A stretch of DNA of 64,000 nt from Candidatus Hadarchaeota archaeon (GTDB taxonomy: Archaea > Hadarchaeota > Hadarchaeia > Hadarchaeales > Hadarchaeaceae), in contig CAZESD010000002.1 of assembly GCA_964514945.1 (NCBI GenBank), positions 13,369 through 77,368 on the forward strand, in the 5' to 3' direction. The stretch's first letter is position 1; every line of letters begins with the position of its first letter. The notes beneath the pieces are model-generated. The model ran no database searches. It was not told the DNA's origin and saw only the letters and a list, made by a program, of their open reading frames with translations. Positions 2,349 to 31,159 of this stretch are shown here, in pieces. A program made the translations under genes and the position numbers.

Positions 2349-2353
2349 TAGTT

Positions 2354-6616: not shown

Positions 6617-6618
6617 GT

Positions 6619-7464
6619 TCAATGCCTCGGTGCCTCCAAAATTAACAGCTTCTTGCGACCCCGCTCTCTCGCCATGACTTTCCATCCCGCACGCTTGAAA
6701 CAAAAACCTGGATCTGTGCTTTTAATTGCTTTTGGGTTAACATATGTGAATAAGCGTTTCCCCGACCATTTCTTTATGGCTTGCTTCACAGCTTCTTTGA
6801 TTAAATCACTCGATAGTCCAGCCCCCTCGTTTCTGAACAGCGCACACTCTACTCCCTTCTGTCCATCCCAGCGGATTTTGTTCAATCTCCAGACGAACAG
6901 GGCTCGTTTGTCTGGAGTTATCAAGACCAGTTTTTCACCTGGACCGCAGAAAAACCTCGCGCCCCTAGTTTTTCTGGAGTAGTGATTATCAGCTAGTCTC
7001 TTGGCATCCAAGTTCGCATCATGGGTCACCATCCACACAACTTTTTCTTTGCCCCCATCATAGTCCTCGCTCCAGCGATTGAACTTTGTGAACCCACCAA
7101 GAGCCCGCATTACCGAGCGCGAGCTAATGCCAACGGTAGTGGCTATTTTCTCATACGTAAAACCTTTCTCACGCATAGAAATCATTTTCGCTAAATCTCT
7201 GCGCGAGAGCTTTACCGGTCTCCCCTGCTTTGAGTAGTCATAGATCACATCGACCCTTTTTTGAAAGAGGTAATCTAGTGCTCTCCTGCTTGCATTTTTT
7301 CTCGCCGTTCGTGTGAGAGTTACCCTCTCCAGATTCGGGCATCGCTTCAAGAGAAGCTTTACCGTGTTGCAAGTAAGATAATTAACAACATGAACTTTTT
7401 TGGCGCATCGTGGAAGTCCGTCTATATCCTCATTTTTTCTTACAATCAAAATATCAGCCCCCAA
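6619..7464 (-). CDS. Hypothetical protein with an internal helix-turn-helix, first gene ahead of nurA-herA in the same operon
   Basis: HTH-like stretch TYEKIATTVGISSRSVMRAL; stop 2 nt before the preferred NurA start; unknown C-terminal domain. Confidence 0.5.
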   Translation of the reverse strand: MGADILIVRKNEDIDGLPRCAKKVHVVNYLTCNTVKLLLKRCPNLERVTLTRTARKNASRRALDYLFQKRVDVIYDYSKQGRPVKLSRRDLAKMISMREKGFTYEKIATTVGISSRSVMRALGGFTKFNRWSEDYDGGKEKVVWMVTHDANLDAKRLADNHYSRKTRGARFFCGPGEKLVLITPDKRALFVWRLNKIRWDGQKGVECALFRNEGAGLSSDLIKEAVKQAIKKWSGKRLFTYVNPKAIKSTDPGFCFKRAGWKVMARERGRKKLLILEAPRH

Positions 7465-7486
7465 ATAGGTGACATTTTGTTGAATA

Positions 7487-7990
7487 TTAACATTTTGTCA
7501 CTCCCCTCGCTCGCAGATTTTCACTTAAATTTTCGTCATTCTGTCGCTCCTCCGTTTCAAGTCTTTTGATGGTTCTGGTCTCTCTCTTTATCTCTTTGGG
7601 TCTTGGCCTAAGCTTCTTGTCCATCCTCTCCTTGAAGCGAACACCGACAACTTCTCTTGTAATGCCTAGTTCATAAAGTTCTTGAGGACGAACACAACCT
7701 TGGCGCAAAATCACCTCTGGGATTTTTTCTGGACTGGAGAAAATGCGAACCTCTACAGCAACCTTCAAAACACTTGGACCCGAATATCCCCGTCTGAATT
7801 CGATTAAAAATTTTGAACCCGATCGAGCAAGATATTGCTTCCCAACTGGGCTTGCCGCACTCCGAAATTCCCAGATCTTTTTCCCTTGCGCGATAAGGTC
7901 AAACCACTTCTTTTTAAGCGGGCAAAAAACCCTTCGCCATTTCTTAACACTTCCCATGATCAGATCCCCAAAAACCATCCGACCACCCAC
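7487..7990 (-). CDS. ASCH (PUA-like) domain protein
   Basis: KKWFDLIAQGKKIWEFR matches the ASCH core (hP.K..yfd.I..G.Kt.E.R); the C-terminal tail is basic. Confidence 0.55.
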   Translation of the reverse strand: MGGRMVFGDLIMGSVKKWRRVFCPLKKKWFDLIAQGKKIWEFRSAASPVGKQYLARSGSKFLIEFRRGYSGPSVLKVAVEVRIFSSPEKIPEVILRQGCVRPQELYELGITREVVGVRFKERMDKKLRPRPKEIKRETRTIKRLETEERQNDENLSENLRARGVTKC

Positions 7991-8343
7991 CCGATCGCGA
8001 ACCAGTAGAGCATGTCTAGGTTAAGCAGGAAAGACGCTTTATATCCGACGCCCTCCGCCAAGCGCCCGTAAACTTTCCTCCAAAGATGCGGATCGCCTAG
8101 TGCAATCAGTGGGTAGAGGCAGAACACCAGAGGCACGACGATAACGAAGCCGAAGTAGCTGGCCGACGCCCCGACCACGAACGCTAGGCCGCACTCGGCA
8201 CGGGCCAGAAGCGAGTAGATTGTCAACCTCCGATTGCCCTTCTTTATCTTGTGTCTCATTCGGGCCATGAACTTAGCATAGCCTTCGTCGAACCTTCGGG
8301 CCAAGAAGTCGCCTGGGGTGAGGATTAGGCGCTTGACGTTCAT
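7960..8343 (-). CDS. Small membrane protein, the full-length member (copy 1) of a family that recurs in this window
   Basis: 127 aa with two hydrophobic segments. Paralogous sequence recurs at 14583, 18249, 19277 and 20594. Confidence 0.6.
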   Translation of the reverse strand: MNVKRLILTPGDFLARRFDEGYAKFMARMRHKIKKGNRRLTIYSLLARAECGLAFVVGASASYFGFVIVVPLVFCLYPLIALGDPHLWRKVYGRLAEGVGYKASFLLNLDMLYWFAIGWVVGWFLGI

Positions 8344-8679
8344 TCCATTTCATCCTATTAATCTAGAGCAGCACGAGTCGCATGTTGCTTTTAATGTGCA
8401 CTCATTCATGCGGAGGATTTTTAGCAATTCTCCCATCTCCGTTTGTCTGCTCAAGAAAAATAACATCTCCGAAAACTCTGCAAGTTTTATACGGGTGTGA
8501 GGAGGGTGGGAAGTTGAGTCTTCTTCAAATCTCGAAAGATACAATCGCTCTCGTCCTTTGCAATCCTCGTTTCGGCGTGGACTTTCTTCTCAGGGGAGAT
8601 TTTTTTGGCTTGCAAAATGGGCCCTTTAATTGGGAGCTTAATTAATGTGCAAAGCCGAGTTAGATTTGAGGCATGTAAA

Positions 8680-9510
8680 TTAACGATCTATCTGGCTGAA
8701 CTTGGAAATAAGTTGCTCGATGGTTAATAACTCAGTGCTTCTGAACTTCAGAGCATTGTCTGTTACATTTTGTACTTCGTGTAGTTTCACTATTTTTTCG
8801 TCGCTTGACCATACAACCACGTATAGCGGAACATTAAGACTCTGTCTAAGAATATCCAAAGGTTTCCACCTGTTTATGTCTTTGGAAAAGTAAAGATTCA
8901 GATCATGAGATTTCACTGGAAATTTGCGAGTTCTACTGAATTCGAAAATAGCTTCCACCTCCTTGGCTATTTTGTTCAAGAGAAACCCATCAAGGTTACC
9001 TGGCCAAGGGACGCCGTGCCGTCGTAGGCACTGGTCTATGGATGATAATCGACCTGGCTCAACGAAACCTTTAGAGACATGAATTCCCTTCAGGCTTGAC
9101 ATCCACTGTGCGAGATCTTCGCATGAGTTAAACAACTTTTTATTTACAACTACTATCTGTCCCTCGTCTTTAGCATCTACAGACAAAAGCCAAAAATTTT
9201 CCCCCCCATCTTGCCATAGCAGGAGATACAGCGGAACATTTAGAGACCTAGCCAGCACTATCCTAGCAAGCCAAGGATCTTTGTCTTCTTTTGTTTCAAA
9301 CCACTTACAGATCTGAAGTTCTGTCCATTCTCCAACTCTGATTGTGGATTTGCGCCTTTCGAATAATGCGGTGACAATGTTGCCCCTAACGGAGTAACCT
9401 TCTACAGGGTAAAGTGGAATGCCTTTTTTAAGAAGGGATTCATATACCCAATTTTTGGCTTCTGGTGTATCTATCCGTAATTCTGCTGCCATAATTTCCC
9501 CTCCATTCAC
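8680..9510 (-). CDS. Hypothetical protein made of two tandem copies of one homologous domain
   Basis: The block ARSLNVPLYLLLWQDGGENFWLLSVD in the first half matches LRQSLNVPLYVVVWSSDEKIVKLHEV in the second half. Confidence 0.5.
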   Translation of the reverse strand: MNGGEIMAAELRIDTPEAKNWVYESLLKKGIPLYPVEGYSVRGNIVTALFERRKSTIRVGEWTELQICKWFETKEDKDPWLARIVLARSLNVPLYLLLWQDGGENFWLLSVDAKDEGQIVVVNKKLFNSCEDLAQWMSSLKGIHVSKGFVEPGRLSSIDQCLRRHGVPWPGNLDGFLLNKIAKEVEAIFEFSRTRKFPVKSHDLNLYFSKDINRWKPLDILRQSLNVPLYVVVWSSDEKIVKLHEVQNVTDNALKFRSTELLTIEQLISKFSQIDR

Positions 9511-9648
9511 TCTCGATCCTCCTTTGTGAAAACCTATAGCTTTATGCGCGACTATTAATTTTTAACCCAATATCTCTCAATGGGGGTTGCTCCTAAAATA
9601 GCTTCTGCTCCCAAGGTACTTTTAATATGCGGGCAGAAAATCGATAGA

Positions 9649-12336
9649 TTACCTCAAACTCTCCTCAATAATTTTCTTTTCAGATTCAGTTATACCATAC
9701 AAACTATAGACCAATTCGTCTATCTCCGCGTCTGTTTTATTTATTTCTTCTTCTATTCTCTGTCTTTCGTCTGTTTTTTTGTCCCCGATTTCATTGAGGC
9801 GTTTGTTAAGAGAGAGCATTTTGTCCACGAGTTTGATAAGGGGTTGTTGTTGGGTTTCTGGAATTATTTTAATCGGTAGTTCATCTATTTGAGTCCCCCG
9901 CAAATCCAGATATCCACCACCGACATGGGTGGTGCCAAAATTTACTTTGTAATAAAAATCAATCACTTTTGAATTTAAGAGTGCAGTTAAAAATCTGAGA
10001 TTGATTTTTTGTTCTTTTTTTGGGATTAAATAGTAAATTCTATCCATTATGAAATTACCGCCGCCTTCATACGCTGCTTTAAGACTTAAAACTGTTCGTG
10101 GCATGAGCACTTTCTCTTTCGACAAAATTTTATTTTGTAGATCAGAAACAACAAAAACATCATCAGAAAGTTTAGGTAAATACCCGCTAACATTTCTAGA
10201 AACTATGCACTTGTGTGAGTTTTTTGTCTTTTCATTTAGTATTTTTATCTTATTTTTTGGTGAACCTCTACGGCATGTGAACAAATCTTTTACCCTAACA
10301 CTCTTTTTAACAAACTTCTCTATTAATTGAAATTTAATGTTTCCAATTTCTTCAAGAAATCTATTATCTCGACCTTCTAGAAACTTGGATTGTTTTATTT
10401 TTACTGTATTCTTATTAAAATGTAAATCTTCTATCTCATTTATTTTTTGAAATGTTATTAAATTGTTTTTTCTATTCATCTCATTACCCTCTTTTTGTAG
10501 GATTGTGATAACTGGATATGTCGATGCATCTTTGAAAATCCTCAAATGAGATACATCAATCAAAGAGATGATCTTGCAGTTTTCAAGAATTATATCCCTT
10601 AATTTTTGGCCGTAGTCACTCGCAATAAATTTGTTAGAAGTGATAAATCCCAAGTATCCATTATTTCTTAATAACTTCATCCCAATTTCAAAAAATAAGA
10701 TATAGATGTCGTATTGTTCGTAGGCACTTGAATATTTCTTAGCGTGAAACAGTTTATCTTTATTTGGAAGATCAGTATTTCTAATGTAAGGCGGATTTCC
10801 GATAACAACATCAAAACCGCCTTCGTCAATGATTTGTTTGAATTCCTTTTCCCATTTGAAAGCCTTATCTCCCGCGACTTTTTCATCGTCAATCAAAGAA
10901 TTACCGCATTTGATGTTTTGCTTTAGCAAGGGCAATCTGTATCCTTTTTCCGTAATTTTCAACAAAAGATTTAACTGTGCGATCTCTACTGCTTGCTTGT
11001 CTAAATCAACGCCGAAAATATTGTTCTTCAAAATTTCTACTTTTTTTGTAAATGTCGTTCCTGTCTCTACATCCAAGCGTGTTTGATTGTAATCTTTATC
11101 CTTCTTGCTGTGGTATTCATTCAAAACATCAAAAGCTTTTATCAAAAATGAACCGGAGCCACAAGCAGAATCCAAAACCCTAATTTTTTCGACATCCACT
11201 GTTTTGTCTTTAAGCAACTCACCTAAAGTATTTCTTACGATATAATCAACAATATAAGTGGGCGTGTAGTAAATTCCCTGCTCCTTGCGGCGGGCGTGCT
11301 TTTTCGCCAAGGTGGCCCGCTTTGCGGTCTTCTTTAGAATGTGGCCCAAGTACTGCTCGTAAACATTACCAAGAACATCAGCATCTAGTGCGGAAAAATC
11401 ATACTTTATTGTCCTATCCTTTGTGTGATCAAGACCGTTTATTATTTCTTCAAGAACCTCATTACTCACATCTAATTGGTCGCATAAGTGAGGTTTAAAC
11501 AGCTCACTATTGTATTCATCCCAAAAATGGCGGAAAACATCAACTATACGTTCAGCAAGAGTGCCTCTATGTTTACTTTCCCATATCCGTAGCACGGATA
11601 ACAATGTTTCTTCTTCTAGTTTTCTATCTTCACAGTTTCTAATGAAAATTAGTCTATCTATAATTCTCTGAACAGCCTCGTCCAACTCCGCCTCAGTGAG
11701 TCGTTTGTCTTTGTTTCTCGCTAGAATATCCTTAGAAAGCTTGGCTCGCCATATTGTCAAATCGTTAAGCAACTGTTCGCCCACAGAACTTTTCTTAGAT
11801 TTTTTGCCCCATTTCTCAGCTTCTTTATCCAATAAGCCCTGTTCAAAACTTTCTTTAGACAGAAGCCACAATTCCTCAAATCTGTCTAAAAACTCTTGGC
11901 GAGGGATAGTTATCGGACGACTTTGAGACGGGTCGGTGGTTTTCCACTCTGCATTAAATATTTTTACGCCTTGATCAAAATCGGTAAGAACGGCCCAAGT
12001 GCAGCCCTTATGCCAAGCGTAATTTATTGCTTGTTCTGCAAACCTAGGATCATCCAAGTCCTCTTTTAGTGCTTTTGCTTCGAGAAAGAATTTTGGGATT
12101 CCATTAATTCTAAAACTGTAGTCAACCCGACCCTTTGATATTGTTTCTTCTCTGGTAACTTCATCGGGATGTGTTTTATTACGAACATCCCAACCCAAAG
12201 CTTCAAACAAGGGTTCTATAAATTCAGCTTTGGTATCCGCCTCAGTATACTTGCCGAATCTTTTTTCTTCGACGACTTTGTCGTATTTCTCAAGAAGCTC
12301 CTTTATTTGCTGTTTGGCGTTTTCCTTGTTTACCAT
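9649..12336 (-). CDS. Type IIG/IIL restriction-modification enzyme of the MmeI family (endonuclease fused to an N6-adenine methyltransferase)
   Basis: N-terminal PD-(D/E)xK layout matching MmeI (RVDYSF..FFLEAKALKEDL); methyltransferase motif I VLDSACGSGSFL and motif IV VVIGNPPY; C-terminal region the size of a target-recognition domain; 895 aa. Confidence 0.85.
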   Translation of the reverse strand: MVNKENAKQQIKELLEKYDKVVEEKRFGKYTEADTKAEFIEPLFEALGWDVRNKTHPDEVTREETISKGRVDYSFRINGIPKFFLEAKALKEDLDDPRFAEQAINYAWHKGCTWAVLTDFDQGVKIFNAEWKTTDPSQSRPITIPRQEFLDRFEELWLLSKESFEQGLLDKEAEKWGKKSKKSSVGEQLLNDLTIWRAKLSKDILARNKDKRLTEAELDEAVQRIIDRLIFIRNCEDRKLEEETLLSVLRIWESKHRGTLAERIVDVFRHFWDEYNSELFKPHLCDQLDVSNEVLEEIINGLDHTKDRTIKYDFSALDADVLGNVYEQYLGHILKKTAKRATLAKKHARRKEQGIYYTPTYIVDYIVRNTLGELLKDKTVDVEKIRVLDSACGSGSFLIKAFDVLNEYHSKKDKDYNQTRLDVETGTTFTKKVEILKNNIFGVDLDKQAVEIAQLNLLLKITEKGYRLPLLKQNIKCGNSLIDDEKVAGDKAFKWEKEFKQIIDEGGFDVVIGNPPYIRNTDLPNKDKLFHAKKYSSAYEQYDIYILFFEIGMKLLRNNGYLGFITSNKFIASDYGQKLRDIILENCKIISLIDVSHLRIFKDASTYPVITILQKEGNEMNRKNNLITFQKINEIEDLHFNKNTVKIKQSKFLEGRDNRFLEEIGNIKFQLIEKFVKKSVRVKDLFTCRRGSPKNKIKILNEKTKNSHKCIVSRNVSGYLPKLSDDVFVVSDLQNKILSKEKVLMPRTVLSLKAAYEGGGNFIMDRIYYLIPKKEQKINLRFLTALLNSKVIDFYYKVNFGTTHVGGGYLDLRGTQIDELPIKIIPETQQQPLIKLVDKMLSLNKRLNEIGDKKTDERQRIEEEINKTDAEIDELVYSLYGITESEKKIIEESLR

Positions 12337-12454
12337 GATATCCCTAGAATATTTGGAATTTTTGGGTATTAAACTGCTCTATCTCGTGAGGTCTAATCAC
12401 CGAACGATTTTTTGCGCAGAAAACTAATTATAGCACAAAGCCTTAAATTAGGCT

Positions 12455-12748
12455 ATGAATAAGAAAGTAGAGAATGCCCGTCTAGTTGCCTTTCTGAATA
12501 ATTATGACTATTCTTTTTGGTATCATAAAATACTTTCATTAGACGAGATTTACAAGGATGAAAATTTCATCAATAAAGTTTTGAGCAAAATGACAGGTAC
12601 TGGTATCGTAGAAATAAGAAGAAGTATCGAATTCGAGATGTTTATGGCCAGTCAGCACCTTATCGAGACCCTATTTATGCTGATAGGAGCAGGACGAAAA
12701 ACTAAAAAAAGACGAGGGTTGGCGGAGCGCTTAATGAGGGGTTATTAG
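12455..12748 (+). CDS. Small hypothetical protein
   Basis: ORF only; lies between two minus-strand cargo genes. Confidence 0.3.
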   Translation: MNKKVENARLVAFLNNYDYSFWYHKILSLDEIYKDENFINKVLSKMTGTGIVEIRRSIEFEMFMASQHLIETLFMLIGAGRKTKKRRGLAERLMRGY

Positions 12749-12843
12749 TGGCACGTATGTGGTAAATAGGGCGACATGACCCGACACCTAGTACGTAAGA
12801 AAATCATACCGAGAACCTTGCCGTGCGGGCAGGGCAAACTGTC

Positions 12844-14232
12844 TCAAGTACTCCAAAAAAATCCCGGAACATAAACTTCTTCGTGGGATAATCCACCATG
12901 TGAGGATTTGAAATGCGTGAATCCTGAACGATAATTTGAGAGGTCTAAGCCTCCGAGGTAACAATTCTCGAAATGAACAACTACTTCCCCAATATGAAAA
13001 TCAGTCCCATAGGACTCACCAGTAATCTCTTCAGTCGCGAATCGTTCAAGTGTTCCAGGCTTAAGCGTTTTCCATTTTTCACCTGCCCAATCATAGCCGT
13101 AAAAACCTGAGCCTTCCTTTTTCACCCGTACAAGTGCAGGTTCGATGTCAGATTTCATTATCAAGGGATGTAAATCCTCAGAATAAAGATTGAGAATAGT
13201 TTGATTCGTTGCATAAAATTTGTAGTTCTTACCTAGGTACTTTTTAAATTTAGGAAAGGGAACAAAACCTTCTGGAACAGGTTTGTGGCCATGATCAGAA
13301 ACAATGAAGGAAAGGGTCTGACCGGAGCCAGATTCTTTGAGTTTACTATCTAAGCTAATTATGTATTGAAAGATTTTGCACAATTCGGATGTGACTATAG
13401 GGTTATCCGCTCCGTACATGTGAGCTAGGTAATCAATTGTGAATCGAACGAAGAGAAGCCAAAACTTCTTTGTCTCGTTTCTCTTGATGTATTTCTCTGC
13501 TTCTTGGGATGTCTCTAGGTTACCTGTGGTTTTTACATAAGTTTCTCTAAATAATTCACTCCCAAAAAAGTAATCTAAGAAACGACGTCCTTCGCTTTGG
13601 CTGTGGGATTTTCCTGCGGTGATAAATCCCAATGCACCGTCTTTATCCATCAATGAGGAGAGCAGGAAATAGGTCGTGATGGGAACCACGCTGGGTAAAA
13701 GCAGCTTTGTATTGTCCGATAGGTTTGGTTTAACGTTGAATCTTTCCCCAGTGTCTACGTCCCAGAACCTATCTGCGAAAACTTTGTGCTCTATTGGGAA
13801 CGCACCTGTGAATAATGATGTTGTAGCTACTGTGGTCATCGATGGGAACGTTGTAAACATTGAAGCTATCTCAGGCTTTATTTTTTCGAAGAAGGGTTTA
13901 CCTGATTTGAAAAATGTGGTAAAGCCCATGCCATCTATCAGGTAAATGATAATGTGATTGAATGATTCTAAATTCACATGAAGTCGGTCCTCGATCACAT
14001 CTTCCAAGCTTGCTCCGCAGTATCCCAGGCGTTGAATGTCATAAAGCGTGTTTATCTTAATATCGGTACCTAACACTCCTGCCTCGAGTCTTCTCTTTGG
14101 AGGACCCTCCCTTTTTTCTAAATACCGCAATAAAGTAGGGGCTATATCGACAATCGAAAACTCGCCCTCGTCCAAATCACGAATTCGTGTGCATATCTTT
14201 AGGCCATGCTTTGTGTTTTCAACGGCTGTCAT
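12844..14232 (-). CDS. Alkaline-phosphatase-superfamily protein (type I phosphodiesterase / nucleotide pyrophosphatase-like; PglZ-like fold)
   Basis: Metal-ligand and nucleophile block IIIYLIDGMGFTTF...PSMTTVATTSLFTG, FIVSDHGH and C-terminal SHGGLSHEEVYVP are all typical of the AP/NPP clan; there is an extra N-terminal domain of ~90 aa. Confidence 0.7.
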   Translation of the reverse strand: MTAVENTKHGLKICTRIRDLDEGEFSIVDIAPTLLRYLEKREGPPKRRLEAGVLGTDIKINTLYDIQRLGYCGASLEDVIEDRLHVNLESFNHIIIYLIDGMGFTTFFKSGKPFFEKIKPEIASMFTTFPSMTTVATTSLFTGAFPIEHKVFADRFWDVDTGERFNVKPNLSDNTKLLLPSVVPITTYFLLSSLMDKDGALGFITAGKSHSQSEGRRFLDYFFGSELFRETYVKTTGNLETSQEAEKYIKRNETKKFWLLFVRFTIDYLAHMYGADNPIVTSELCKIFQYIISLDSKLKESGSGQTLSFIVSDHGHKPVPEGFVPFPKFKKYLGKNYKFYATNQTILNLYSEDLHPLIMKSDIEPALVRVKKEGSGFYGYDWAGEKWKTLKPGTLERFATEEITGESYGTDFHIGEVVVHFENCYLGGLDLSNYRSGFTHFKSSHGGLSHEEVYVPGFFWST

Positions 14233-14299
14233 TCATAAATTCTATTCTTTCCTCTCCTTTAAACAATTCTTTCCTGCCCAGTCATATTTTGAAACCTTT

Positions 14300-14356
14300 G
14301 CGCGTGGTCGGGAGGTGAGTAAGTGAAGGGATTTTCACTTAAGCCCGGCCACGCGC
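14300..14356. repeat. Nested inverted repeat (13-bp outer stem around a 7-bp inner stem) in the divergent intergenic region
   Basis: Outer stem GCGCGTGGTCGGG...CCCGGCCACGCGC with one mismatch; inner stem AAGTGAA...TTCACTT. Confidence 0.5.
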
Positions 14357-14582
14357 GGCCCGCAACCACTAACTTCCAGTTCTTGTGGAGGCTGAAAGCT
14401 TGGAGGCCGCGGATTGCCGATAAACGGTTTGGGGGCGGATAAAAAAGGGCTTCGGTTTTGGGACGTCCAGCGAGGGTTAGAGAAGTGATTTCATCGGAAA
14501 GATTGAGGTCAAACCGATGACTCACGCCCCGCCGAACGCCGAAAGTGATTTTGGGCGCGGGGATAAAAGCTGTTGCGATCGG

Positions 14583-14880
14583 ATGAACGTCAAGCGCCTA
14601 ATCTTCACCCCCGGCGACTCCCTGGCCCGGAGGTTCGACGAGGGATATACCAAGTTCATGGCCCGAATGAGGCGCAAGATGAAGAATGGCAATCGGAGGT
14701 TGGCGATCTACTCGCTTCTTGCTAGGGCGGAGTGCGGGCTTGCTTTCGTGGTCGGGGCTTCGGCGAGCTACTTCGGCTTCGTCATCGTGGTGTCTCTGGT
14801 GCTCTGCCTCTACCCGCTGATTGCTCTCGGTGACCCTTTCTTATGGCGCAGGACATACGGGCGCTTGGTGCGAGGCATCG
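14583..14880 (+). pseudogene. Small-membrane-protein family copy 2: the 5' part is intact and fused to an unrelated GC-rich tail
   Basis: MNVKRLIFTPGDSLARRFDEGYTKFMARM...YGRLVRG lines up with copy 1 up to about 14880, after which homology is lost. The ORF in the track runs on to 15065 through sequence of atypical composition. Confidence 0.5.
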
Positions 14881-15175
14881 ACCCGTCCCTGCCACATGTT
14901 CGCTTGTCGGCGCGATCTTCAACGCCGCCGATGCCTTTCGCCGCTCCCCTCTCTGCGTCCGCTGGTGCGGCCGGATGGATAACCTCACCCAAAAGCTTGC
15001 GCTCTCGGGAAACCGCACCAGCGGATTGCGCGAGCATTTCGGGAGTGAAGGCCATTCCTCCTTGACCTTCTTCGGCATTTTAACCTTGGTGGCGGACTGG
15101 AACCCGAATTATGCGACTGGCTGCACATCGGACGGGATCTCAGCATCTCGCCAGCACTCTCCCGCCAGCCCACTC

Positions 15176-15330
15176 TCGCCATCTCCTACTCACCTTCGAG
15201 GTACTTCCTCACCTTCCGCTGGCGCAGCACGTGCCTTCGGAGCATCGCCTTCCGCCTGCGCACCATCAAGAGCGCGTATCCGGCCGCCCCGACCGCGAGC
15301 ACTCCGACCCCGAGCTCGACCATCATCTCA
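15176..15330 (-). CDS. Small protein with one transmembrane helix (46 aa; translated by hand, below the track's length cutoff)
   Basis: MMVELGVGVLAVGAAGYALLMVRRRKAMLRRHVLRQRKVRKYLEGE; it is a tandem paralog of the gene just upstream. Confidence 0.35.
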
Positions 15331-15549
15331 TTTTTCCTCCTCGAACTTCCTCTTGAGCCTTTTTAACTTCCTCAGTTGCTCCTCGCGTATCTTGGTCCAC
15401 TTCGCCCTTCTCCTGTACTGGCGAACCGCATAGCCGGCCGCGCATATGGCGAGGATTCCGACCCCGAACTCCACTATCATTTTCTCCCCTTCGGCCTTCT
15501 TCGGCATTTTAGGCCACGGCGTGTAGGGGGCACGGTCGCGCGTAGCCAC
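15328..15549 (-). CDS. Small protein with one transmembrane helix (73 aa), paralogous to 15176..15330
   Basis: MIVEFGVGILAICAAGYAVRQYRRRAKW... followed by a basic coiled tail; DNA-level repeat with the neighbouring gene. Confidence 0.4.
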   Translation of the reverse strand: MATRDRAPYTPWPKMPKKAEGEKMIVEFGVGILAICAAGYAVRQYRRRAKWTKIREEQLRKLKRLKRKFEEEK

Positions 15550-15571
15550 TCAAGCGTCTTGTGGTCTATCC

Positions 15572-15871
15572 TCACTCCCCCTCGCCCGTACTCGATGAGA
15601 GAAGTCCTCTGAGTTCCTTGTGTTTTTTCAAGAACTCATAACCCCGCTCGGTGACCGCCCAGTTCGATGGCGAGTTGGTCTGGGCTTTTACCAGTCCGCC
15701 CTTGGCTAGGTCACTTATGTATCGCCTGCACCGGCCGAAGTTCAGGTTGGCCCTGTAGACGATGTGGGTTTTGCAGGCCCCGTCGTCGATAGCACCCAAT
15801 ATATCAGCGTAAATGTCAGTTAGACCCCTTCGCTTTATGCTGTCCATCCTCGGAATTTGCCCAGCCCCCAT
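15572..15871 (-). CDS. Winged-helix DNA-binding protein
   Basis: Pattern KRRGLTDIYADILGAI...RYISDLAKGGLV, similar to archaeal wHTH regulators. Confidence 0.5.
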   Translation of the reverse strand: MGAGQIPRMDSIKRRGLTDIYADILGAIDDGACKTHIVYRANLNFGRCRRYISDLAKGGLVKAQTNSPSNWAVTERGYEFLKKHKELRGLLSSSTGEGE

Positions 15872-15974
15872 TTTTCCAGCAGACTATTCGTGTATCTAAT
15901 TGATACACAAACATACTCTATATTACCCATCACCCTTTAAAGGGATGCCTAACAAGATACACGGATGATACATT

Positions 15975-16166
15975 ATGAGTGCGCTGCGGGATGTGCGGTT
16001 GAAGATACCAGAACCCATGCTCGAGGGGATAGACTTGGCGATAGAGATGGGTCAGGCTGCGACGAGATCCGACTTCATCCGCATGTCAATAGCCGATCGC
16101 CTCAAGGAACTCACGATCGTCGGGGAACTCAAGCTGAGGAAATTCGGAAAGGGTCGAAAGGGTTGA
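15975..16166 (+). CDS. Ribbon-helix-helix (CopG-like) protein
   Basis: RLKIPEPMLEGIDLAIEMG...SDFIRMSIADRL fits the beta-alpha-alpha RHH pattern. Confidence 0.55.
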   Translation: MSALRDVRLKIPEPMLEGIDLAIEMGQAATRSDFIRMSIADRLKELTIVGELKLRKFGKGRKG

Positions 16167-16227
16167 GGCCCCCCAGCCACGATTTTCTGTTCTCCATCAG
16201 TCACACGCCGAACAGTTCCGCGGTGCC

Positions 16228-16587
16228 GTGCAGGACGACCTTGTGAGGGAATACGGCCTCGATGTCTTGGAGTTCGTCCCAGACACCGCCGTTCTATGCC
16301 CATACTGCAGGGGGGTGATGGTTAGGAACGGCACAATAGCCATTGAAAAGTGGACGGCGCATAACTACCTCTGCCGAAAGTGCGGTAAACAGCGGAGAGT
16401 TCCGACCAAGGCTCAGATGAGAAGAATTGAGGGGTTGGCTTCGAAGCGAGAAGGGGTTACAAGAGTAAGCTCCGATGTTACGAGTCCCCCTAGTTCTTCT
16501 CCCTCATCTAAGAGACCCAAAAAGAGAAGAAAGCAACCGATCGTCCTTGACGGAGTTGGAAAATTTAAGACTCTCTACGAGTTTTAA
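16228..16587 (+). CDS. Zinc-ribbon protein with a basic Ser/Pro-rich tail
   Basis: CPYC...17 residues...CRKC forms a four-Cys ribbon; hairpin terminator-like inverted repeat at about 16600..16632. Confidence 0.5.
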   Translation: MQDDLVREYGLDVLEFVPDTAVLCPYCRGVMVRNGTIAIEKWTAHNYLCRKCGKQRRVPTKAQMRRIEGLASKREGVTRVSSDVTSPPSSSPSSKRPKKRRKQPIVLDGVGKFKTLYEF

Positions 16588-16660
16588 GGCACTTTAGGGA
16601 AACGTCGCCCTAGAGAGACGTTATCCCAAACTAAAAATAACGGAGATCCAAAGTAAAATT

Positions 16661-17689
16661 ATGTCCAAAAATACAATTAAAAAATTGAGAAGGGAAGGGG
16701 CTAAATCTTTCGAAGAATTTAAAAAACACCTAGCAAAATTCAAAATCATCTATATCACACTTTTTATTTGTCTCACATTTTTTTATCTGATCCCTTATAG
16801 TGAAGATGTAGGCTTTTTCTCTCTTTCTATTTTTCTACTTCTCCTCATGCCTGTGGAATACGGTATCATTAAAGGTGGTTCTAATAAAGCCGAATTAAAA
16901 ACGCTATGGAAAATTTTGACAGGTCTTATATTGCTCGAAACGTTGGTTCTCTTGCTTGTTTTTTACCGTCATATCCATTACTTTGTTGCTCACCCTGATT
17001 GGTTTCCATTCTTACTTTTTTTTGTCGGTCTCTTTTTACTAGGGGGATGTATAGGGGGTATGCTCTATAACTCATATATAGCATCATCTGGAACACTATT
17101 GTTAATTGCTTTTTACTATAATGTCTCCAAAGCGTGGTGTTATTTGCAAAGAAAGCCGAGTCCTAAGCCATTCTATTTTAAATTTTCTAACCAAAATCAA
17201 CTAAATCATAATATTCTCCAAGATTTTCTTTATTACTTTACTGAGATTCTTTGGTTTTCGTCATGGTTCATATTGCTTATAATAAGTACAATGACTGTGC
17301 CCCCCAAGGTGATTACATCTTTTTCGGAGATCGGGGGAATTAGTATCCTCCTGTGGTCAATTATTTCAAGTTTGTTTATTTTTCCGTTGTTTTTAGCGGA
17401 ATCATCGGGTGTCCTCTGGCAGGGGAAAACCGTAAGCGTCAAGCGATTTCATAAGTACTTGTCTATTTTCTTTCTCTTTGTTGTTGCAGTAAAATTTGCA
17501 ACTTGGGGAGAATCCTTTGTCCCCCAATTTTTGTATGCGTTGCTCTTATGCGTATTCGCACAATCCGGGCTTGCTTTTGGTTATGTTATCACAGAAAAGG
17601 TTGCAAATAAACGTTTTATTAGATTAGCATATTTCTTTTACAGATTGGGAAAATGGACTGGCCTTGAGGCATCCGCAAGCAATCCATGA
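16661..17689 (+). CDS. Polytopic integral membrane protein
   Basis: At least 8 hydrophobic segments; AT-rich. Confidence 0.55.
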   Translation: MSKNTIKKLRREGAKSFEEFKKHLAKFKIIYITLFICLTFFYLIPYSEDVGFFSLSIFLLLLMPVEYGIIKGGSNKAELKTLWKILTGLILLETLVLLLVFYRHIHYFVAHPDWFPFLLFFVGLFLLGGCIGGMLYNSYIASSGTLLLIAFYYNVSKAWCYLQRKPSPKPFYFKFSNQNQLNHNILQDFLYYFTEILWFSSWFILLIISTMTVPPKVITSFSEIGGISILLWSIISSLFIFPLFLAESSGVLWQGKTVSVKRFHKYLSIFFLFVVAVKFATWGESFVPQFLYALLLCVFAQSGLAFGYVITEKVANKRFIRLAYFFYRLGKWTGLEASASNP

Positions 17690-17848
17690 ATTTCATTTCG
17701 TCAAGCGTCAGCCGATTGCGAGAGAGGTGAGCTGCCGAAGGGATCTTCTTGCAACAGGTGCATTCACCCCCCAAATTCATATGAAAAACCTTAAAACTAT
17801 ATCTTGGAAAGTAGAAAAAAGGAGGCAAACCGTGCATGATGTGAGAAC

Positions 17849-18094
17849 ATGATCGTTACGACAACAGATACTATACCTGGAAAGAAAATTGTTAAGATCT
17901 TAGGAATTGTTTTCGCTTCAAGCGGATCGATGGCAAAGCCAACAATAGAAGAAGCACGAGAAGATGCATGTGAAAAATTAAAAAAAGAAGCGGAGAAGCT
18001 AGGAGCCAACGCGATAGTAGGAGTCAAAGCGGAGCACGTAGTTACACTGGCCTGTGCAATAACTTTAACTGGAACCGCCGTAGAAATAAAATGA
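17849..18094 (+). CDS. YbjQ/UPF0145-family (DUF74) protein
   Basis: MIVTTTDTIPGKKI...EEAREDA...LGANAIVGV matches the UPF0145 consensus. Confidence 0.6.
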   Translation: MIVTTTDTIPGKKIVKILGIVFASSGSMAKPTIEEAREDACEKLKKEAEKLGANAIVGVKAEHVVTLACAITLTGTAVEIK

Positions 18095-18248
18095 TTATCG
18101 AATAACCGCAGGTTTTTCAGCATCCCAGAGCAGGCTCGCTTTCACCGTCTGTTTCACGGGGACTTCTTCCAAGCAAACGATCCTGACCTCATATTTCTTG
18201 AGGCCGAATTTTCATCTGCCCTAACACCGATGGAAATCCAGCTGGTTA

Positions 18249-18470
18249 CTAGGCTAGACCAATCATCCACCCGGCCAGCCACCCGATCGCGAACCAGTAG
18301 AGCATGTCAAGGTTGAGGAGAAAAGACGCCTTGTAGCCGACGCCCCGCGCTAGGCGCCCGTAAACTTTCCTCCAAACATGCGGGTCGCCTAGTGCAATCA
18401 GCGGGTAGAAACAGAGCACCAAGGGCACCACTATGGCAAAACCAAAGTAGCTAGGTTTTCCTTAGCGGAG
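18249..18470 (-). pseudogene. Small-membrane-protein family copy 3, a fragment holding only the 3' part
   Basis: Homology begins at SYFGFAIVVPLVLCFYPLIALGDP...; a stop codon lies immediately upstream in the same frame. Confidence 0.55.
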
Positions 18471-18471
18471 A

Positions 18472-19188
18472 TTATTTTAGCCATCCTTCAGGATATGGTG
18501 CAATGTCTGATTTCCCAGATAGTTCATCAACCTCAACAAATAATATTTTTAAGTCGGGATGTTGTTCATTTTTTTCTTCAATGTATTTTTCGTATTTTTC
18601 TTTTAGATACCTTTTACATTCTTTTTTATGATATTGGTAAGCCTTTTCTTTTTTATCTGTCCGTTTTCCGCTCGCTTTTATAAACGAGAGGATATACGCA
18701 TGTGTGACCTTGTTCCCTTTGTCGGTTAACTTTTTGAAATCACGATTGAAATGGTTCTTAAAACTCCCGTAGTTGAGAGACCTTTTAATCGGCTTATCGG
18801 TTTCAAGATCAAACGAGAACTCAATTGCTACAAATGGGGTATTTTCTTTAGAACCTAAAATTGCGAGATCAAAACTAGCAAGAGTTCCATCGTTGACCAA
18901 TTTTTCCTTTATTATTCTGTATCGTTGTTTTGTGGGATGTCCCCCTCTTATTTCGCACTGTTTTAAATTCTGTTTTAGATTTCTGTAAAGTTTGTAATGC
19001 AGATATTTCTCGCCGAAAAACGAAAGCATTTCTCTCTCATTTTCACCCCATTGACGGTACTGTATGAATTGCTCTTTTAGTTTCTTGATACAACTTTCTA
19101 CTTTTTCAACACATTCTTTTTCAGAAATCATTTTTTCCACCCTAGCATCCACGCCTTGATAGCGCCAACAAGTTCCTTTAGGTCTCAT
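18472..19188 (-). CDS. Hypothetical Lys-rich protein, bracketed by partial small-gene copies in direct orientation
   Basis: 238-aa ORF, AT-rich, no recognisable motif. Confidence 0.45.
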   Translation of the reverse strand: MRPKGTCWRYQGVDARVEKMISEKECVEKVESCIKKLKEQFIQYRQWGENEREMLSFFGEKYLHYKLYRNLKQNLKQCEIRGGHPTKQRYRIIKEKLVNDGTLASFDLAILGSKENTPFVAIEFSFDLETDKPIKRSLNYGSFKNHFNRDFKKLTDKGNKVTHAYILSFIKASGKRTDKKEKAYQYHKKECKRYLKEKYEKYIEEKNEQHPDLKILFVEVDELSGKSDIAPYPEGWLK

Positions 19189-19276
19189 CTAAATCCCTGA
19201 GCTGGATTTTGTTTTCCGCCGATTTCGCCCGCTCCGCCGTAGAAGCGAAGGGTTGTCATTTTTCACCCTAGTCAAA

Positions 19277-19510
19277 CTAAAACACCGGTAAATAAAACCA
19301 CCCAACCGCCCACCCGATCGCGAACCAGTAGAGCATGTCTAAGTTTAGTAGAAATGAGGCCCTGTATCCGACGCCCCGCGCTAACCGCCCGTATGTCCTG
19401 CGCCACATGAAAGGGTCGCCCAGTGCAATCAGCGGGTAGAGGCACAACACCAAGGGCACGACGATAACGAAGTCGAAATAACTAGCCGTTGCTCCGACCA
19501 CCCATGACCC
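19277..19510 (-). pseudogene. Small-membrane-protein family copy 4, a fragment holding only the 3' part
   Basis: VGATASYFDFVIVVPLVLCLYPLIALGDPFMWRRTYGRLARG...; it is closest in sequence to copy 2. Confidence 0.55.
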
Positions 19511-20593
19511 ATGACCGCCCAGAATCTAACTTTTCAAACAGAAGCTACTTTTTAAACACGCTTCCGACTTTTTAAACAGGGGGCACTTTTTAAACAAAGC
19601 CGTTATTCTTTAGCTATACTGATAACATACGCTACTAAGACGGCAATCCCGATTATGAAAATCGCAACTCCCGCAGGTTGCAAAGGTGATGGATAAGCAG
19701 CTAGGGCCCCACCAATTAATAGAGCTGCAATACCAGCAGCTAGGGGGCTTTCTTTGCCAGCCACATTTTCACCTCCAAATTGGAGCTAGTTTCCACTAGT
19801 ATAAGCGTTTGGATAATTCATTTTGAACAGCCCGCTGTTATTGATAATCATTTTGCCTTTGGTTTGAGTATTCGGGTTATGTAAAGCGTGGTAATTGCAC
19901 CCATTATCATGCCGAATAATACGTATAATAAGTTCGATATGTCCATCTCAAATCACCCCCGTTCATTTTTTGACTTTAGGAGCAACCCCCAGAATTTAGG
20001 AGCAGAGTCCGAAAAGTGCTCCTAAAGTACCGTTTGTTTTAAATTTTTCAACCCCATCAGGAAAACTTGCTGGTACTAAAGGAATCTGTTTTCATACCAT
20101 GCCTTGCTGACCCATTTATGTTTTTCACATGCATTGAGTTTTGTTTCGGCATCGATCCTATGTTTTGGGTTGCAAAACGGGCAGTTATTGTTTTCAGTAA
20201 TTTTTAATTCGCCCTGCTGTAATGCTTTTTTAACCCAGCCCATCTCAATCTCCTTTGTCCATACAGAATGTTATATTGATTTTCATTTATTTCCCTTCAA
20301 ACTCTATTAGGTTCTGTTAACTTAAGTGGGTCTGATTTTTGTGGAGAGCAGGCTTTTCGGTTCTGTAAATTCTGCGGGGTTCAAGAAATCAATATACGAT
20401 GCCCACGTTGTGGATGGGGTTGCGAGGTTCGAGGAGGGCCAAGAGATCCCCCTCAAAAAAGAGCACGTGTCGATGTATATCGAATACGAGAAGATACTCG
20501 AGGCTCTGAAAGAAAAAATACTCAAAGAGGGCAGCGAATTTGAAAAAAAGCGCATAGAGGGCAGCGAGTTTTGCCTGGGCGAGGACGTATCCT

Positions 20594-20645
20594 CGATATG
20601 CTCTACTGGTTCGCACTCGGATGGGTGGTAGGGTGGATTTTATAA
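20594..20645 (+). pseudogene. Small-membrane-protein family copy 5, a remnant of the C-terminal tail
   Basis: Encodes LDMLYWFALGWVVGWIL* in the frame offset by +1 from ORF 20326..20631. Confidence 0.4.
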
Positions 20646-20781
20646 GAACTCAAGCCCCATGCTGCATCCGCTTTTTTATTCGTAGTTGTTCGGCCCGCAA
20701 TATTTTCATAACTCGCATCGCTATTTTCCATCCATCCTGATCGGAGATTAGAACCCTAAGGTGAACCAAACGAATATTAAC

Positions 20782-21603: not shown

Positions 21604-21673
21604 TATAATTACTCTTTAGATTCTTACCTAAAAGTTTTGAAAAAGTAATTTTTGTGCAAGCGGGGCAATTTTT

Positions 21674-22297: not shown

Positions 22298-22543
22298 ATG
22301 CCGTTGGGAGGGGAAAGGGAGATAACGAAATCTGAACCCTGCTTCGCGCACTACTTGGCCCTCCCCAAGTGCAGGGAGTGCAGGATAGAGATGCCCTGCC
22401 TAAGAGCTACTCTGGGGGGCATGGCCGAGCGCGGTCTGCTGAGGGAACGGTTCGACCTGGGGCGGGGGGAACTCGTTTACTCGATCTCAGAGAGGGGAAG
22501 ACGGCGCTTGGAGAAGAGGGGGCTACTGAGGAAGGTGGATTAA
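22298..22543 (+). CDS. Winged-helix transcriptional regulator (PadR/ArsR-like)
   Basis: ERGLLRERFD...VYSISERGRRRLEK. Confidence 0.5.
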   Translation: MPLGGEREITKSEPCFAHYLALPKCRECRIEMPCLRATLGGMAERGLLRERFDLGRGELVYSISERGRRRLEKRGLLRKVD

Positions 22544-22544
22544 A

Positions 22545-23117: not shown

Positions 23118-23120
23118 TGG

Positions 23121-25495: not shown

Positions 25496-25499
25496 TGCG

Positions 25500-25721: not shown

Positions 25722-25737
25722 ACAGGAGGTTCAGTGA

Positions 25738-31044: not shown

Positions 31045-31159
31045 TCATCTAAACGAAAGATGACTCAATGTCATTCATAAACCGCACCTGATTTATATAC
31101 CTCACTATATATCGGCGCCAAGTTTAAATGCGAGGCGTAATTAGGTGGGTGGTGGTGAA

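What the first reader, a model, noticed from the sequence alone, without database searches (positions are those of the whole stretch)
7960..20645. A dispersed family of one full and four partial copies of a small membrane-protein gene, which look like nested att-site duplications
The full copy lies at 7960..8343 (minus strand). A 5' portion fused to unrelated GC-rich sequence lies at 14583..~14880 (plus strand). 3'-only fragments lie at 18249..18470 and 19277..19510 (minus strand). A 17-codon tail lies at 20594..20645 (plus strand). Each fragment ends at a clean homology breakpoint; for example, a stop codon sits immediately 5' of SYFGF in copy 3. The copies are not identical (HLWRKVYGRLAEG, FLWRRTYGRLVRG, HVWRKVYGRLARG, FMWRRTYGRLARG). 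This pattern is expected if elements that integrate into the 3' end of this gene each bring their own att-gene fragment. It fits the three recombinase genes nearby.
Basis: seen in the sequence. Interest (0 to 1): 0.65.

Follow-up and report, generated by a model that had tools for sequence, protein, structure and literature searches.

The report
Relics of an island-borne membrane gene
The five copies and part-copies are real; they are separately acquired versions of a small membrane-protein gene found only in Hadesarchaea, left as seams inside a 25.8-kb patchwork island that splits a pilus ATPase gene, and they are not a tidy stack of elements inserted into one resident gene.

Summary
In detail: there is one full and four partial copies of a 127-aa membrane-protein gene (G), 80-85% identical at the DNA level. 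G belongs to an orphan family seen only in Hadesarchaea. The family occurs in several copies per genome, evolves under purifying selection (dN/dS about 0.15), and normally follows a conserved, hairpin-rich leader of about 300 nt. Full and broken copies recur at the joints of variable, defence-rich DNA in other Hadesarchaea contigs. A 27-30-nt stretch near the 3' end is conserved even at silent sites, and breakpoints cluster around it.

All five window copies lie inside a 25.8-kb insertion (1397-27182). This insertion splits a type-IV-pilus-like ATPase gene at a 10-bp direct repeat, and an integrase sits at its right edge. A serine-recombinase remnant and a segment 90-94% identical to one in another genome show that the island is a mosaic of mobile DNA.

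The idea that each incoming block brought its own copy is supported. Simple nested integration into the 3' end of one resident gene is not supported. The 3' fragments lie upstream of the full copy. Two pieces are inverted. The 5' breakpoints differ. The integrases lie outside the bracketed segments, and the best-supported attachment site in the window is in a different gene.

The parts
7960..8343 (-). c1: the only full-length G gene (127 aa). It has no leader; homology to other copies starts 5 nt before the ATG.
14286..14582 (+). Conserved structured leader of the G module, the only copy in the window. It has a sharp left edge at 14286/14287 and a 5' hairpin GCGCGUGGUCGG...CCGGCCACGCGC.
14583..14880 (+). 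c2: codons 1 to about 99 of G, then unrelated GC-rich sequence. The ORF is annotated elsewhere as the 182-aa protein P0094.
18258..18454 (-). c3: 3' fragment of G, from about codon 52 to the end. It starts 18 nt after the stop of the 238-aa ORF 18472-19188.
19291..19505 (-). c4: 3' fragment of G, from about codon 46 to the end.
20588..20649 (+). c5: tail of G (the last 17 or so codons) plus about 17 nt that match the start of the downstream gene H seen in other loci.
7987..8016 (-). 30-nt core in c1. Exact copies are at 18279-18308 (-) and 19310-19339 (-). The 17-nt centre is also at 20598-20614 (+). The core is conserved at silent sites across the family.
1397..27182 (.). 25.8-kb composite island, absent from the syntenic locus of L015. 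It contains all five G pieces, HerA/NurA, a type IIG restriction-modification gene, a serine-recombinase remnant and three tyrosine-recombinase ORFs.
1387..1396 (+). Left copy of the 10-bp direct repeat TTACCCGGCG, at the end of the N-terminal half of the ATPase gene (ORF 227-1405).
27183..27192 (+). Right copy of TTACCCGGCG. Homology to the C-terminal half of the ATPase resumes here (tblastx from about 27205; called ORF 27301-28242).
25738..27168 (+). Int476, a tyrosine recombinase that abuts the right island junction. L012 has a 49%-identical homologue 2.4 kb from a G module, and L151 has a 27%-identical relative directly upstream of a G module.
23597..24982 (+). Int461, a Xer-like tyrosine recombinase with an N-terminal HTH extension.
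21674..23117 (+). Three contiguous ORFs (207, 81 and 190 aa). The last is the catalytic part of an integrase, 47% identical to Int461. Together they are probably one degraded integrase gene.
16228..16587 (+). Remnant (C-terminal 75 aa, 71% identical) of a large serine recombinase. The same gene is intact next to G in L008.
15307..15868 (-). Small membrane protein plus HTH_45 gene, 90-94% identical in DNA to L020 15508-16337. This is a recently shared mobile module.
9649..12336 (-). Type IIG restriction-modification gene. It is cargo of the low-GC segment bracketed head-to-head by c1 and c2.

Best explanation
The repeated unit is a module found only in Hadesarchaea. It consists of a structured leader of about 300 nt followed by a 125-130-aa helical membrane-protein gene (G), sometimes with a 67-aa gene (H) overlapping its stop. 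I infer that the module travels with mobile and defence DNA rather than being one fixed chromosomal target.

In this window at least five independently acquired versions ended up inside one 25.8-kb patchwork island. That island was inserted, probably by the adjacent integrase Int476, into a type-IV-pilus-like ATPase gene at the sequence TTACCCGGCG.

The four partial copies are seams. I infer that blocks of foreign DNA were joined, inverted or deleted by recombination that started or ended inside a module copy, so each break left a piece that keeps one natural end of the module. The last 50 nt or so of G are a preferred joint and may be a recombinase site. This stretch includes a 27-30-nt core that is conserved even where the protein does not require it.

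Shown by the tools: the copies and their limits; the family and its copy number; purifying selection; silent-site conservation of the core; recurrent fragments in other genomes; the island, its repeat and its integrase; the recombinase remnant; and the recently shared segment.

Inferred: that the module is carried by the mobile blocks; that the joints arose by recombination within module copies; and that the core is a recombination site.
For: 1. Family and selection. There are 122 homologues; every source name given is Hadesarchaea or an unassigned metagenome label, and several copies share a contig. Only 39 clusters exist among 1.84 billion representative proteins, with no known relatives. 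There is no Pfam or NCBIfam hit. Median dN/dS is 0.15 with dS about 0.9.
2. Separate lineages. All pairs of window copies are 80-85% identical, and the best outside matches are 83-90%. Third-position changes dominate, at 19/29, 24/38 and 24/33 mismatches, even in the fragments.
3. Module limits. The left edge is sharp at query position 187-191 in L001, L006, L018-L022 and L082. The right edge lies within the last few codons.
4. Leader. The leader is more conserved than the gene, and its 5' hairpin keeps its pairing in 19 sequence variants.
5. Fragments elsewhere. Tails occur in L014, L016, L020, L044, L057, L062, L122/L153, L129 and L141. Leader-only pieces occur in L001, L004, L011, L020, L151 and L153. 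One case (L001) is a precise split at the ATG by a 724-nt insert.
6. Breakpoint clustering. Breakpoints cluster at profile positions 342-349 and 368-373, just 5' of the core. About 9 of 25 breakpoints fall in 50 of 670 nt, binomial P about 5e-5.
7. Core. Codons 110-118 use one codon in 85-94% of copies at 2- to 6-fold degenerate sites, against 35-60% at most other 4- to 6-fold sites.
8. Neighbours. The surrounding genes are defence or mobile genes: restriction-modification, TIR, AbiJ, SLATT/ThsB, HNH, MCM and integrases.
9. Island. In L015 one 739-aa ORF equals window ORF392 plus orf313, so 25.8 kb is missing there. The exact 10-mer occurs only at the two junctions. The integrase is at the edge. 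GC content is mosaic, from 0.31 to 0.57.
10. Mosaic of mobile DNA. There is a serine-recombinase remnant, and a 560-nt segment is 90-94% identical to L020, where G itself is only 81% identical.
11. Strain comparison. L003 and L004 share the same G allele at 99.8% over only 2.1 kb. The left break falls exactly at the end of a leader fragment.
Against: - No pair of near-identical contigs was found that differs by a block inserted at a G module, so no joint has been caught in the act.
- The excess of tail fragments may be partly a detection bias. The core and the leader hairpin are the best-conserved parts, so short pieces that contain them are the easiest to find.
- Silent-site conservation of the core could instead serve RNA structure, translation of the downstream gene, or a regulator.
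- In one lineage G sits within about 20 nt upstream of a pilus platform-like gene (L013, L044, L112, L139, L145). That looks like an ordinary chromosomal operon rather than mobile DNA.
- Integrases were detectable near G in only 4 of about 35 loci.
- L015 is a distant relative (proteins 55-67% identical), so the 25.8 kb need not have arrived in one event.
Confidence: 0.5

Rival explanations
1. G is a resident chromosomal gene whose 3' end is the attachment site of integrative elements. Each element carries a 3' part-copy that restores the gene, and repeated integration by the nearby integrases stacked up the displaced fragments.
For: All 3'-bearing pieces share the same 3' limit and an exact 17-30-nt core. 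Tail-only fragments that start 7-15 nt before the core recur in c5, L020, L122/L153 and L044. The core is conserved at silent sites. The copies are separate lineages. c2 and c5 are co-oriented and could be the two halves of one split gene, with a serine-recombinase remnant between them. Integrases lie next to G in L008, L012 and L151.
Against: The order and orientation are wrong. c3 and c4 lie upstream of the full copy c1, and no tail lies downstream of it within the island. c2 and c5 leave about 25 nt unaccounted for, so they are not a clean split. The 5' limits of the fragments differ and are scattered across the family. No intact integrase lies inside any bracketed segment. The three integrases sit at the edge of a larger island whose junction repeat is in another gene. 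Leader-only fragments and 5' fragments are as common as tails. No syntenic empty site with an intact G was found, and G occupies many different contexts. No relative of G or of the leader block was found in IMG/VR viral contigs.
Confidence: 0.2
2. The partial copies c3 and c4, and similar short genes elsewhere, are working short paralogues. They would be two-helix proteins expressed from their own starts, not relics.
For: The retained parts keep nearly all of the family's invariant residues, and their differences from full copies are mostly synonymous. Both start with GTG ORFs. AT-rich repeats containing TTTTTAAA lie 30-90 nt upstream of c4. Short family members of 70-100 aa are called in other metagenomes.
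Against: The start points differ from copy to copy. Many of the short proteins elsewhere are cut by contig ends. c3 begins 18 nt after another gene's stop, with no leader. c5 and c2 cannot be explained this way. The same third-position pattern is expected from recent truncation.
Confidence: 0.1
3. The copies form an invertible switch similar to a shufflon. Recombinases would flip segments between inverted G pieces to change the 3' end of the gene, or to connect the leader to a full gene. For example, inversion between c1 and c2 would join the c2 leader to the c1 3' part.
For: c1 and c2 are 259-290-nt inverted repeats that face each other across 6.2 kb. c4 and c5, and also the full copy and tail in L020 and in L153, are inverted pairs. 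Recombinase genes are nearby. c1 lacks a leader, while the only leader is attached to the truncated c2.
Against: The alternative tails encode almost the same peptide, so nothing is diversified. c3 and c4 are in direct orientation to c1. Apart from the core itself, no short conserved sites were seen at the segment borders. The repeats are only 82-86% identical. The recombinases are 1.9-5 kb from the nearest piece.
Confidence: 0.05

Closest known systems
Genomic islands built by repeated integration at tRNA or tmRNA genes, leaving arrays of partial target repeats (for example tycheposons of Prochlorococcus and enterobacterial tRNA-linked islands). This comparison rests on my own knowledge.
   Same: Partial 3'-end copies of one short gene punctuate blocks of cargo that differ in composition. 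Tyrosine and serine recombinases are nearby. The cargo is rich in defence genes. Each fragment keeps the natural 3' end.
   Different: The repeated unit is a protein-coding gene with a structured leader, not a tRNA. The fragments are 80-85% identical rather than near-identical. Orientation and order do not follow the full gene, element, fragment rule. Leader-only and 5' fragments also occur. The unit is present in many copies and many contexts.
Integrative elements that insert into protein-coding genes (for example archaeal casposons at the 3' end of the aEF-2 gene, and large-serine-recombinase prophages that split sigK or spsM). This comparison rests on my own knowledge.
   Same: The whole 25.8-kb island splits a protein-coding gene, the pilus-like ATPase gene. 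It has a short direct repeat at both ends and an integrase at one edge.
   Different: This applies to the island as a whole, not to the G fragments. There is no Cas1 or PolB and no terminal inverted repeats were looked for. The integrase is Xer-like and intact, not split as in the SSV type.
Orphan C-terminal fragment arrays of Rhs and CdiA toxin genes. This comparison rests on my own knowledge.
   Same: One full gene is accompanied by several 3'-only pieces that share a conserved stretch able to recombine with the full gene.
   Different: Here the 3' pieces encode the conserved part, not variable toxin tips. There are no immunity genes, and the pieces are not downstream of the full gene.
Integron cassette arrays
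   Same: Single cargo genes are each followed closely by a repeated element (238-aa ORF followed by c3; similar cases in L014, L016 and L020). Tyrosine recombinases are transcribed away from the array.
   Different: The tails do not fold like attC sites; z-scores range from -1.0 to +1.1. The recombinases score as Xer-like, far below the integron-integrase cut-offs. c5 is inverted relative to c3 and c4.

Membership tests
att-site duplication from integration into the 3' end of a target gene | The restored full gene is followed downstream, on the same strand, by the displaced 3' fragment(s). | tested here: not met
   c3 and c4 lie upstream of c1, and c2 and c5 are on the other strand. There is no tail between c1 and the island's left end.
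att-site duplication from integration into the 3' end of a target gene | An identical core is shared by the two junctions. | tested here: inconclusive
   A 17-30-nt exact core is present in c1, c3, c4 and c5. The same core is exact in most family members everywhere, so it does not mark particular junction pairs.
att-site duplication from integration into the 3' end of a target gene | An integrase gene lies inside the bracketed element, next to one junction. | tested here: not met
   The three tyrosine-recombinase ORFs lie at 22.5-27.2 kb, outside every G-bracketed segment. Only a 75-aa serine-recombinase remnant lies between c2 and c5.
att-site duplication from integration into the 3' end of a target gene | A related genome has an uninterrupted gene at the same locus (an empty site). 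| tested here: not met
   No syntenic empty G site was found. G sits in many unrelated contexts. The syntenic comparisons (L010, L015) show a different target gene.
Integrated genomic island (site-specific recombinase type) | Present in this genome and absent from the syntenic site of a relative. | tested here: met
   In L015 one 739-aa ORF joins what window 227-1405 and window 27205-28242 encode separately.
Integrated genomic island (site-specific recombinase type) | A direct repeat lies at both junctions. | tested here: met
   TTACCCGGCG occurs at 1387-1396 and 27183-27192. These are the only exact copies in 64 kb.
Integrated genomic island (site-specific recombinase type) | A recombinase gene lies at one end, and the composition is atypical or mosaic. 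| tested here: met
   Int476 ends 15 nt before the right repeat. GC ranges from 0.31 to 0.57 inside the island, against about 0.49-0.59 in the flanking sequence.
Shufflon or invertible gene-end switch | Alternative 3' segments in inverted orientation that encode different ends, each bordered by a short conserved site. | tested here: not met
   The tails encode almost the same peptide. c3 and c4 are direct, not inverted, relative to c1.
Integron | attC-like folded sites and an IntI-type integrase. | tested here: not met
   The tails fold no better than shuffled sequence. The integron-integrase models score 20-64 bits against cut-offs of 265-435.
Diversity-generating retroelement (template and variable repeats) | Mismatches are confined to adenines of one copy. 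| tested here: not met
   Mismatches involve all four bases in both members of each pair. No reverse transcriptase was seen among the ORFs that were scanned, but not every ORF of the window was scanned.
Functional protein-coding gene family | Purifying selection and conserved residues across copies. | tested here: met
   Median dN/dS is 0.15. There are 14 invariant and about 50 nearly invariant columns.

The most novel reading that the evidence does not exclude
The leader-plus-G module is a previously undescribed archaeal gene-capture or recombination platform. In this reading the conserved 5' hairpin of the leader and the 27-30-nt 3' core are its two recombination ends. Cargo genes are slotted between or beside these ends, for example leader, 231-aa ORF, G in L001, and leader 5' part, two genes, tail in L020. 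The leader would be a new class of large structured RNA that takes part in the process.
Probability: 0.1. Interest if true: 0.8.

Novelty: new variant of a known kind. Interest (0 to 1): 0.45.

Why it matters
Almost nothing is known about mobile DNA in Hadesarchaea, a deep-subsurface lineage that has not been cultivated.

- **A marker for variable DNA.** This locus shows a lineage-specific module, a structured leader plus an orphan membrane-protein gene, that marks the seams of defence-rich variable DNA. It gives a practical marker for finding such islands in metagenome-assembled genomes.
- **A candidate recombination site.** The module contains a short DNA stretch conserved beyond what the protein needs. 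That stretch is a concrete candidate recombination site that can be tested.
- **An island inside a gene.** The window also documents a 25.8-kb island that splits a pilus-type ATPase gene.

If the module proves to be only a passive, frequently broken passenger, the finding is an ordinary genomic-island patchwork.

Tried and rejected
- tRNA and Rfam scans of the window found nothing: no tRNA, no Rfam family at gathering score, and no hit at E<1 around c2. A tRNA or known RNA target is therefore excluded.
- IMG/VR viral contigs gave nothing useful. The 17-nt core gave 8 hits whose flanks are unrelated, so they are chance matches. The protein profile found no relative. The conserved leader block found nothing.
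Only about 19 loci proved to be relatives.
- The AlphaFold model of G has mean pLDDT 57, all helical, which is too poor for a fold search.
- Pfam, NCBIfam and PADLOC gave nothing for G, H, or the single ORFs next to the fragments. The exception is a weak Mrr-like hit in L020.
- Folding the tails as attC-like hairpins gave no signal.
- A DGR-type adenine bias is absent.
- RNAalifold on six near-identical leaders gave no compensatory pairs because the sequences are too similar. Support for the hairpin came from 19 more divergent variants instead.
- Exact-sequence look-ups of the window's own proteins (238-aa ORF, P0094, P0001) found no record, so no strain-level comparison of this island was possible.
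- A literature search for Hadesarchaea, integrase and mobile genetic elements found nothing relevant.
- I looked for further copies of the island's junction repeat inside the island, which would indicate tandem accretion at one site. There are none.

Full report

Yes. A blastn search of 7701-8700 against the window finds four further matches:
- 14583-14868, 84.5% identical over 290 nt, E 4e-86, opposite strand.
- 18267-18452, 84.4%, same strand.
- 19294-19501, 80.1%, same strand.
- 20588-20641, 83.3%, E 4e-10, opposite strand.

The repeat finder gives the same picture (D3, I1-I3, I5-I7). The ORF list shows the full 127-aa gene at 7960-8343 (-) and the quoted peptide motifs. The alignment and a nucleotide profile place the limits as follows:
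- c2 covers codons 1 to about 99.
- c3 runs from about codon 52 to the end.
- c4 runs from about codon 46 to the end.
- c5 covers the last 17 or so codons.

All four pieces that contain the 3' end lose homology within the last few codons. A 30-nt block is exact in c1, c3 and c4, and its 17-nt centre is also exact in c5. None is expected by chance.

**2. What the repeated unit is**

The protein (G) has 122 homologues. Every source name given is Hadesarchaea or an unassigned metagenome label, and several often share a contig. A profile search of 1.84 billion representative proteins finds only 39 clusters and no known relative. Pfam and NCBIfam find nothing. The AlphaFold model is helical but of low confidence.

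G is a real gene. Among 13 full copies, median dN/dS is 0.15 with dS about 0.9.

The homology unit is larger than the ORF. In c2 and in L001, L006, L018-L022 and L082 it starts at a sharp left edge about 296 nt upstream of the ATG (window 14286/14287). This leader is more conserved than the gene.
- Its first 60 nt form a long hairpin with a conserved GC-rich base.
- The distal stem differs in sequence but stays paired in 19 variants.
- Shorter variants of 155-190 nt lack a middle domain.
- Rfam has no match.

In many loci a 67-75-aa gene (H) overlaps the stop of G. The window has a single leader, attached to the truncated c2. The only full gene, c1, has none.

**3. The copies are separate old lineages, cut recently**

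No two window copies are more than 85% identical, and their best matches in other genomes are 83-90%. Mismatches fall mainly on third codon positions, even for c2, c3 and c4 (24/33, 19/29 and 24/38). The retained parts keep almost all of the family's conserved residues. Each piece therefore diverged while it was part of a working gene. The truncations are recent compared with that divergence.

**4. A DNA-level element in the 3' end**

Across 42 distinct copies and fragments, codons 110-118 (GAC ATG CTC TAC TGG TTC GCG ATC GGG TGG) use one codon in 85-94% of cases, even at four- and six-fold degenerate sites. At most other four- to six-fold sites the top codon reaches 35-60%.

Breakpoints in the family cluster just 5' of this core:
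- Tails start at profile positions 368-373 in c5, L020, L122/L153 and L044.
- A second cluster at positions 342-349 comprises the end of c2, the end of the 100-aa short forms, and the tail starts in L057 and L129.
- Roughly 9 of 25 breakpoints fall in 50 of 670 nt (P about 5e-5).

One caveat applies. Short pieces that contain the best-conserved stretch are the easiest to detect.

**5. Fragments of every part occur elsewhere**

Other loci contain several kinds of pieces:
- Tail-only pieces occur in L014, L016, L020, L044, L057, L062, L122/L153, L129 and L141.
- Longer 3' pieces occur in L011, L119 and L112.
- 5' pieces occur in L004 and L151.
- Leader-only pieces occur in L001, L004, L011, L020, L151 and L153.

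In L001 a 724-nt insert with a 231-aa ORF sits exactly between the leader and the ATG. In L020 the 5' half of a leader and a tail bracket two unrelated genes, all on the same strand. Two strains that share one G allele at 99.8% identity diverge 334 nt upstream of it, exactly at the end of a leader fragment. A single break inside a module always leaves a piece with one natural end, and that is the pattern seen.

**6. Surroundings of the family**

The neighbours of G are defence and mobile genes. They include restriction-modification systems, Vsr, TIR/Roc, AbiJ-like and NucS-like proteins, SLATT/ThsB, HNH, MCM, a DDE transposase and integrases.

Integrases were detectable near G in the window and in L008, L012 and L151 only.
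- In L008, G is followed by a large serine recombinase and then a tyrosine integrase.
- In L151 an integrase ends 55 nt before the first 48 nt of a leader.

In one lineage G lies within about 20 nt upstream of a 499-aa homologue of window orf660.

**7. What the window itself shows**

In L015 a single 739-aa ORF corresponds to window ORF 227-1405 joined to 27205-28242. It is followed by the homologue of orf660. The 25.8 kb between these two halves is therefore an insertion into a type-IV-pilus-like ATPase gene.
- The exact 10-mer TTACCCGGCG occurs only at the two junctions.
- Int476 ends 15 nt before the right copy.
- All five G pieces lie inside this island, together with HerA/NurA, a type IIG restriction-modification gene, two further integrase ORFs, and the C-terminal 75 aa of a serine recombinase like that of L008.
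- A 560-nt segment is 90-94% identical to L020, where G itself is only 81% identical.
- GC content swings between 0.31 and 0.57.

L010 confirms the local synteny of G, the platform gene and glnA. It also shows that 30210-31144 is a further small insertion.

**8. Interpretation**

The specific mechanism, nested integration into the 3' end of one resident gene by the nearby integrases, fails its defining tests:
- The fragments lie upstream of, or inverted to, the full copy.
- The 5' limits differ.
- No intact integrase lies within a bracketed segment.
- The best-supported attachment site is in another gene.
- c2 and c5, the only co-oriented pair of a 5' and a 3' piece, leave about 25 nt unaccounted for.

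I therefore favour, at about 0.5, the following reading. The module is carried by mobile and defence DNA. The partial copies are recombination seams in a composite island. The 3' core is a preferred, possibly enzyme-recognised, joint.

The classical att model keeps about 0.2. Working short paralogues get about 0.1 and an inversion switch about 0.05. The attC-like and DGR-like readings were tested and rejected.

**9. Novelty and interest**

Patchwork islands with partial repeats are a known kind of feature. Four things are new here:
- The repeated unit itself, an orphan membrane-protein gene with a large structured leader.
- Its restriction to Hadesarchaea.
- Its silent-site-conserved core.
- The island splitting a pilus ATPase gene.

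The interest is moderate. It would rise sharply if the leader hairpin and the core proved to be ends of a gene-capture system.

Noticed in passing
window 14286-14585 (also L001 8985-9278, L006 9709-10003, L020 9872-10168, L022 374-670, L154 3149-3306): A conserved, hairpin-rich leader of about 300 nt lies upstream of G. Shorter variants lack a middle domain. Its 5' hairpin keeps pairing in 19 sequence variants, and it has no Rfam match. It may be a new structured RNA or a long 5' UTR.
   Followed up: partly
window 1387-1396 and 27183-27192: A 25.8-kb island splits a type-IV-pilus-like ATPase gene that is a single 739-aa ORF in L015. The split is at a 10-bp direct repeat, TTACCCGGCG, with integrase Int476 at the right edge.
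   Followed up: yes
window 14951-15032 and 30772-30854: An 83-nt inverted repeat, 89% identical, with an internal stem CUGCUGGUG...CACCAGCAG. One copy lies just after the c2 breakpoint. The other lies upstream of a Zn-ribbon ORF, in a 0.94-kb stretch (30210-31144) that is absent between the platform gene and glnA in L010. No Rfam hit.
   Followed up: partly
window 21674-23117: Three contiguous ORFs (207, 81 and 190 aa) are separated by an in-frame stop and a +1 shift. They look like one degraded integrase gene. The last part is 47% identical to Int461.
   Followed up: partly
window 16228-16587; L008 1957-3345: This window ORF is the C-terminal 75 aa (71% identical) of a 462-aa large serine recombinase. 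The intact gene lies between G and a tyrosine integrase in L008.
   Followed up: yes
window 15307-15868; L020 15508-16337: A small membrane-protein gene plus an HTH_45 gene are 90-94% identical in DNA between two genomes whose G genes are only 81% identical. This points to a recently exchanged mobile segment.
   Followed up: partly
L013 2178-2400, L145 10442-10503, L044, L112, L139; L015 9860-14003: In one lineage G is followed within about 20 nt by a 499-aa homologue of window orf660, a pilus platform-like protein. In L015 a 37%-identical G-like gene flanks the same pilus locus. G may have a native link to this machinery.
   Followed up: no
L020 10531-10734, L001 18173-18379 (-), L010 10354-10581; window 20642-20658: A 67-75-aa gene H (MNYxELKALARRADRARGEE...) overlaps the stop codon of G in many loci and has no Pfam hit. 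c5 keeps only its first 17 nt or so.
   Followed up: partly
window 14570-14582 and 7987-8003 (-): GCGATCGG occurs both just before the G start codon (TTGCGATCGGATG) and in the 3' core (TTCGCGATCGGGTG). Both places are recurrent breakpoints in the family.
   Followed up: no
window 23752-23813 and 23872-23933: A 62-nt direct repeat, 85% identical, lies inside the N-terminal HTH region of Int461. It is an internal duplication.
   Followed up: no
window 56294-63994: A 2566-aa ORF on the minus strand is built of repeats of about 300 nt (7-8 copies, 79-94% identical). It is probably a giant repetitive surface protein.
   Followed up: no
window 22566-22610 and 42745-42789: A 45-nt inverted match, 84% identical, links the start of the truncated integrase ORF and an HTH ORF 20 kb away.
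   Followed up: no
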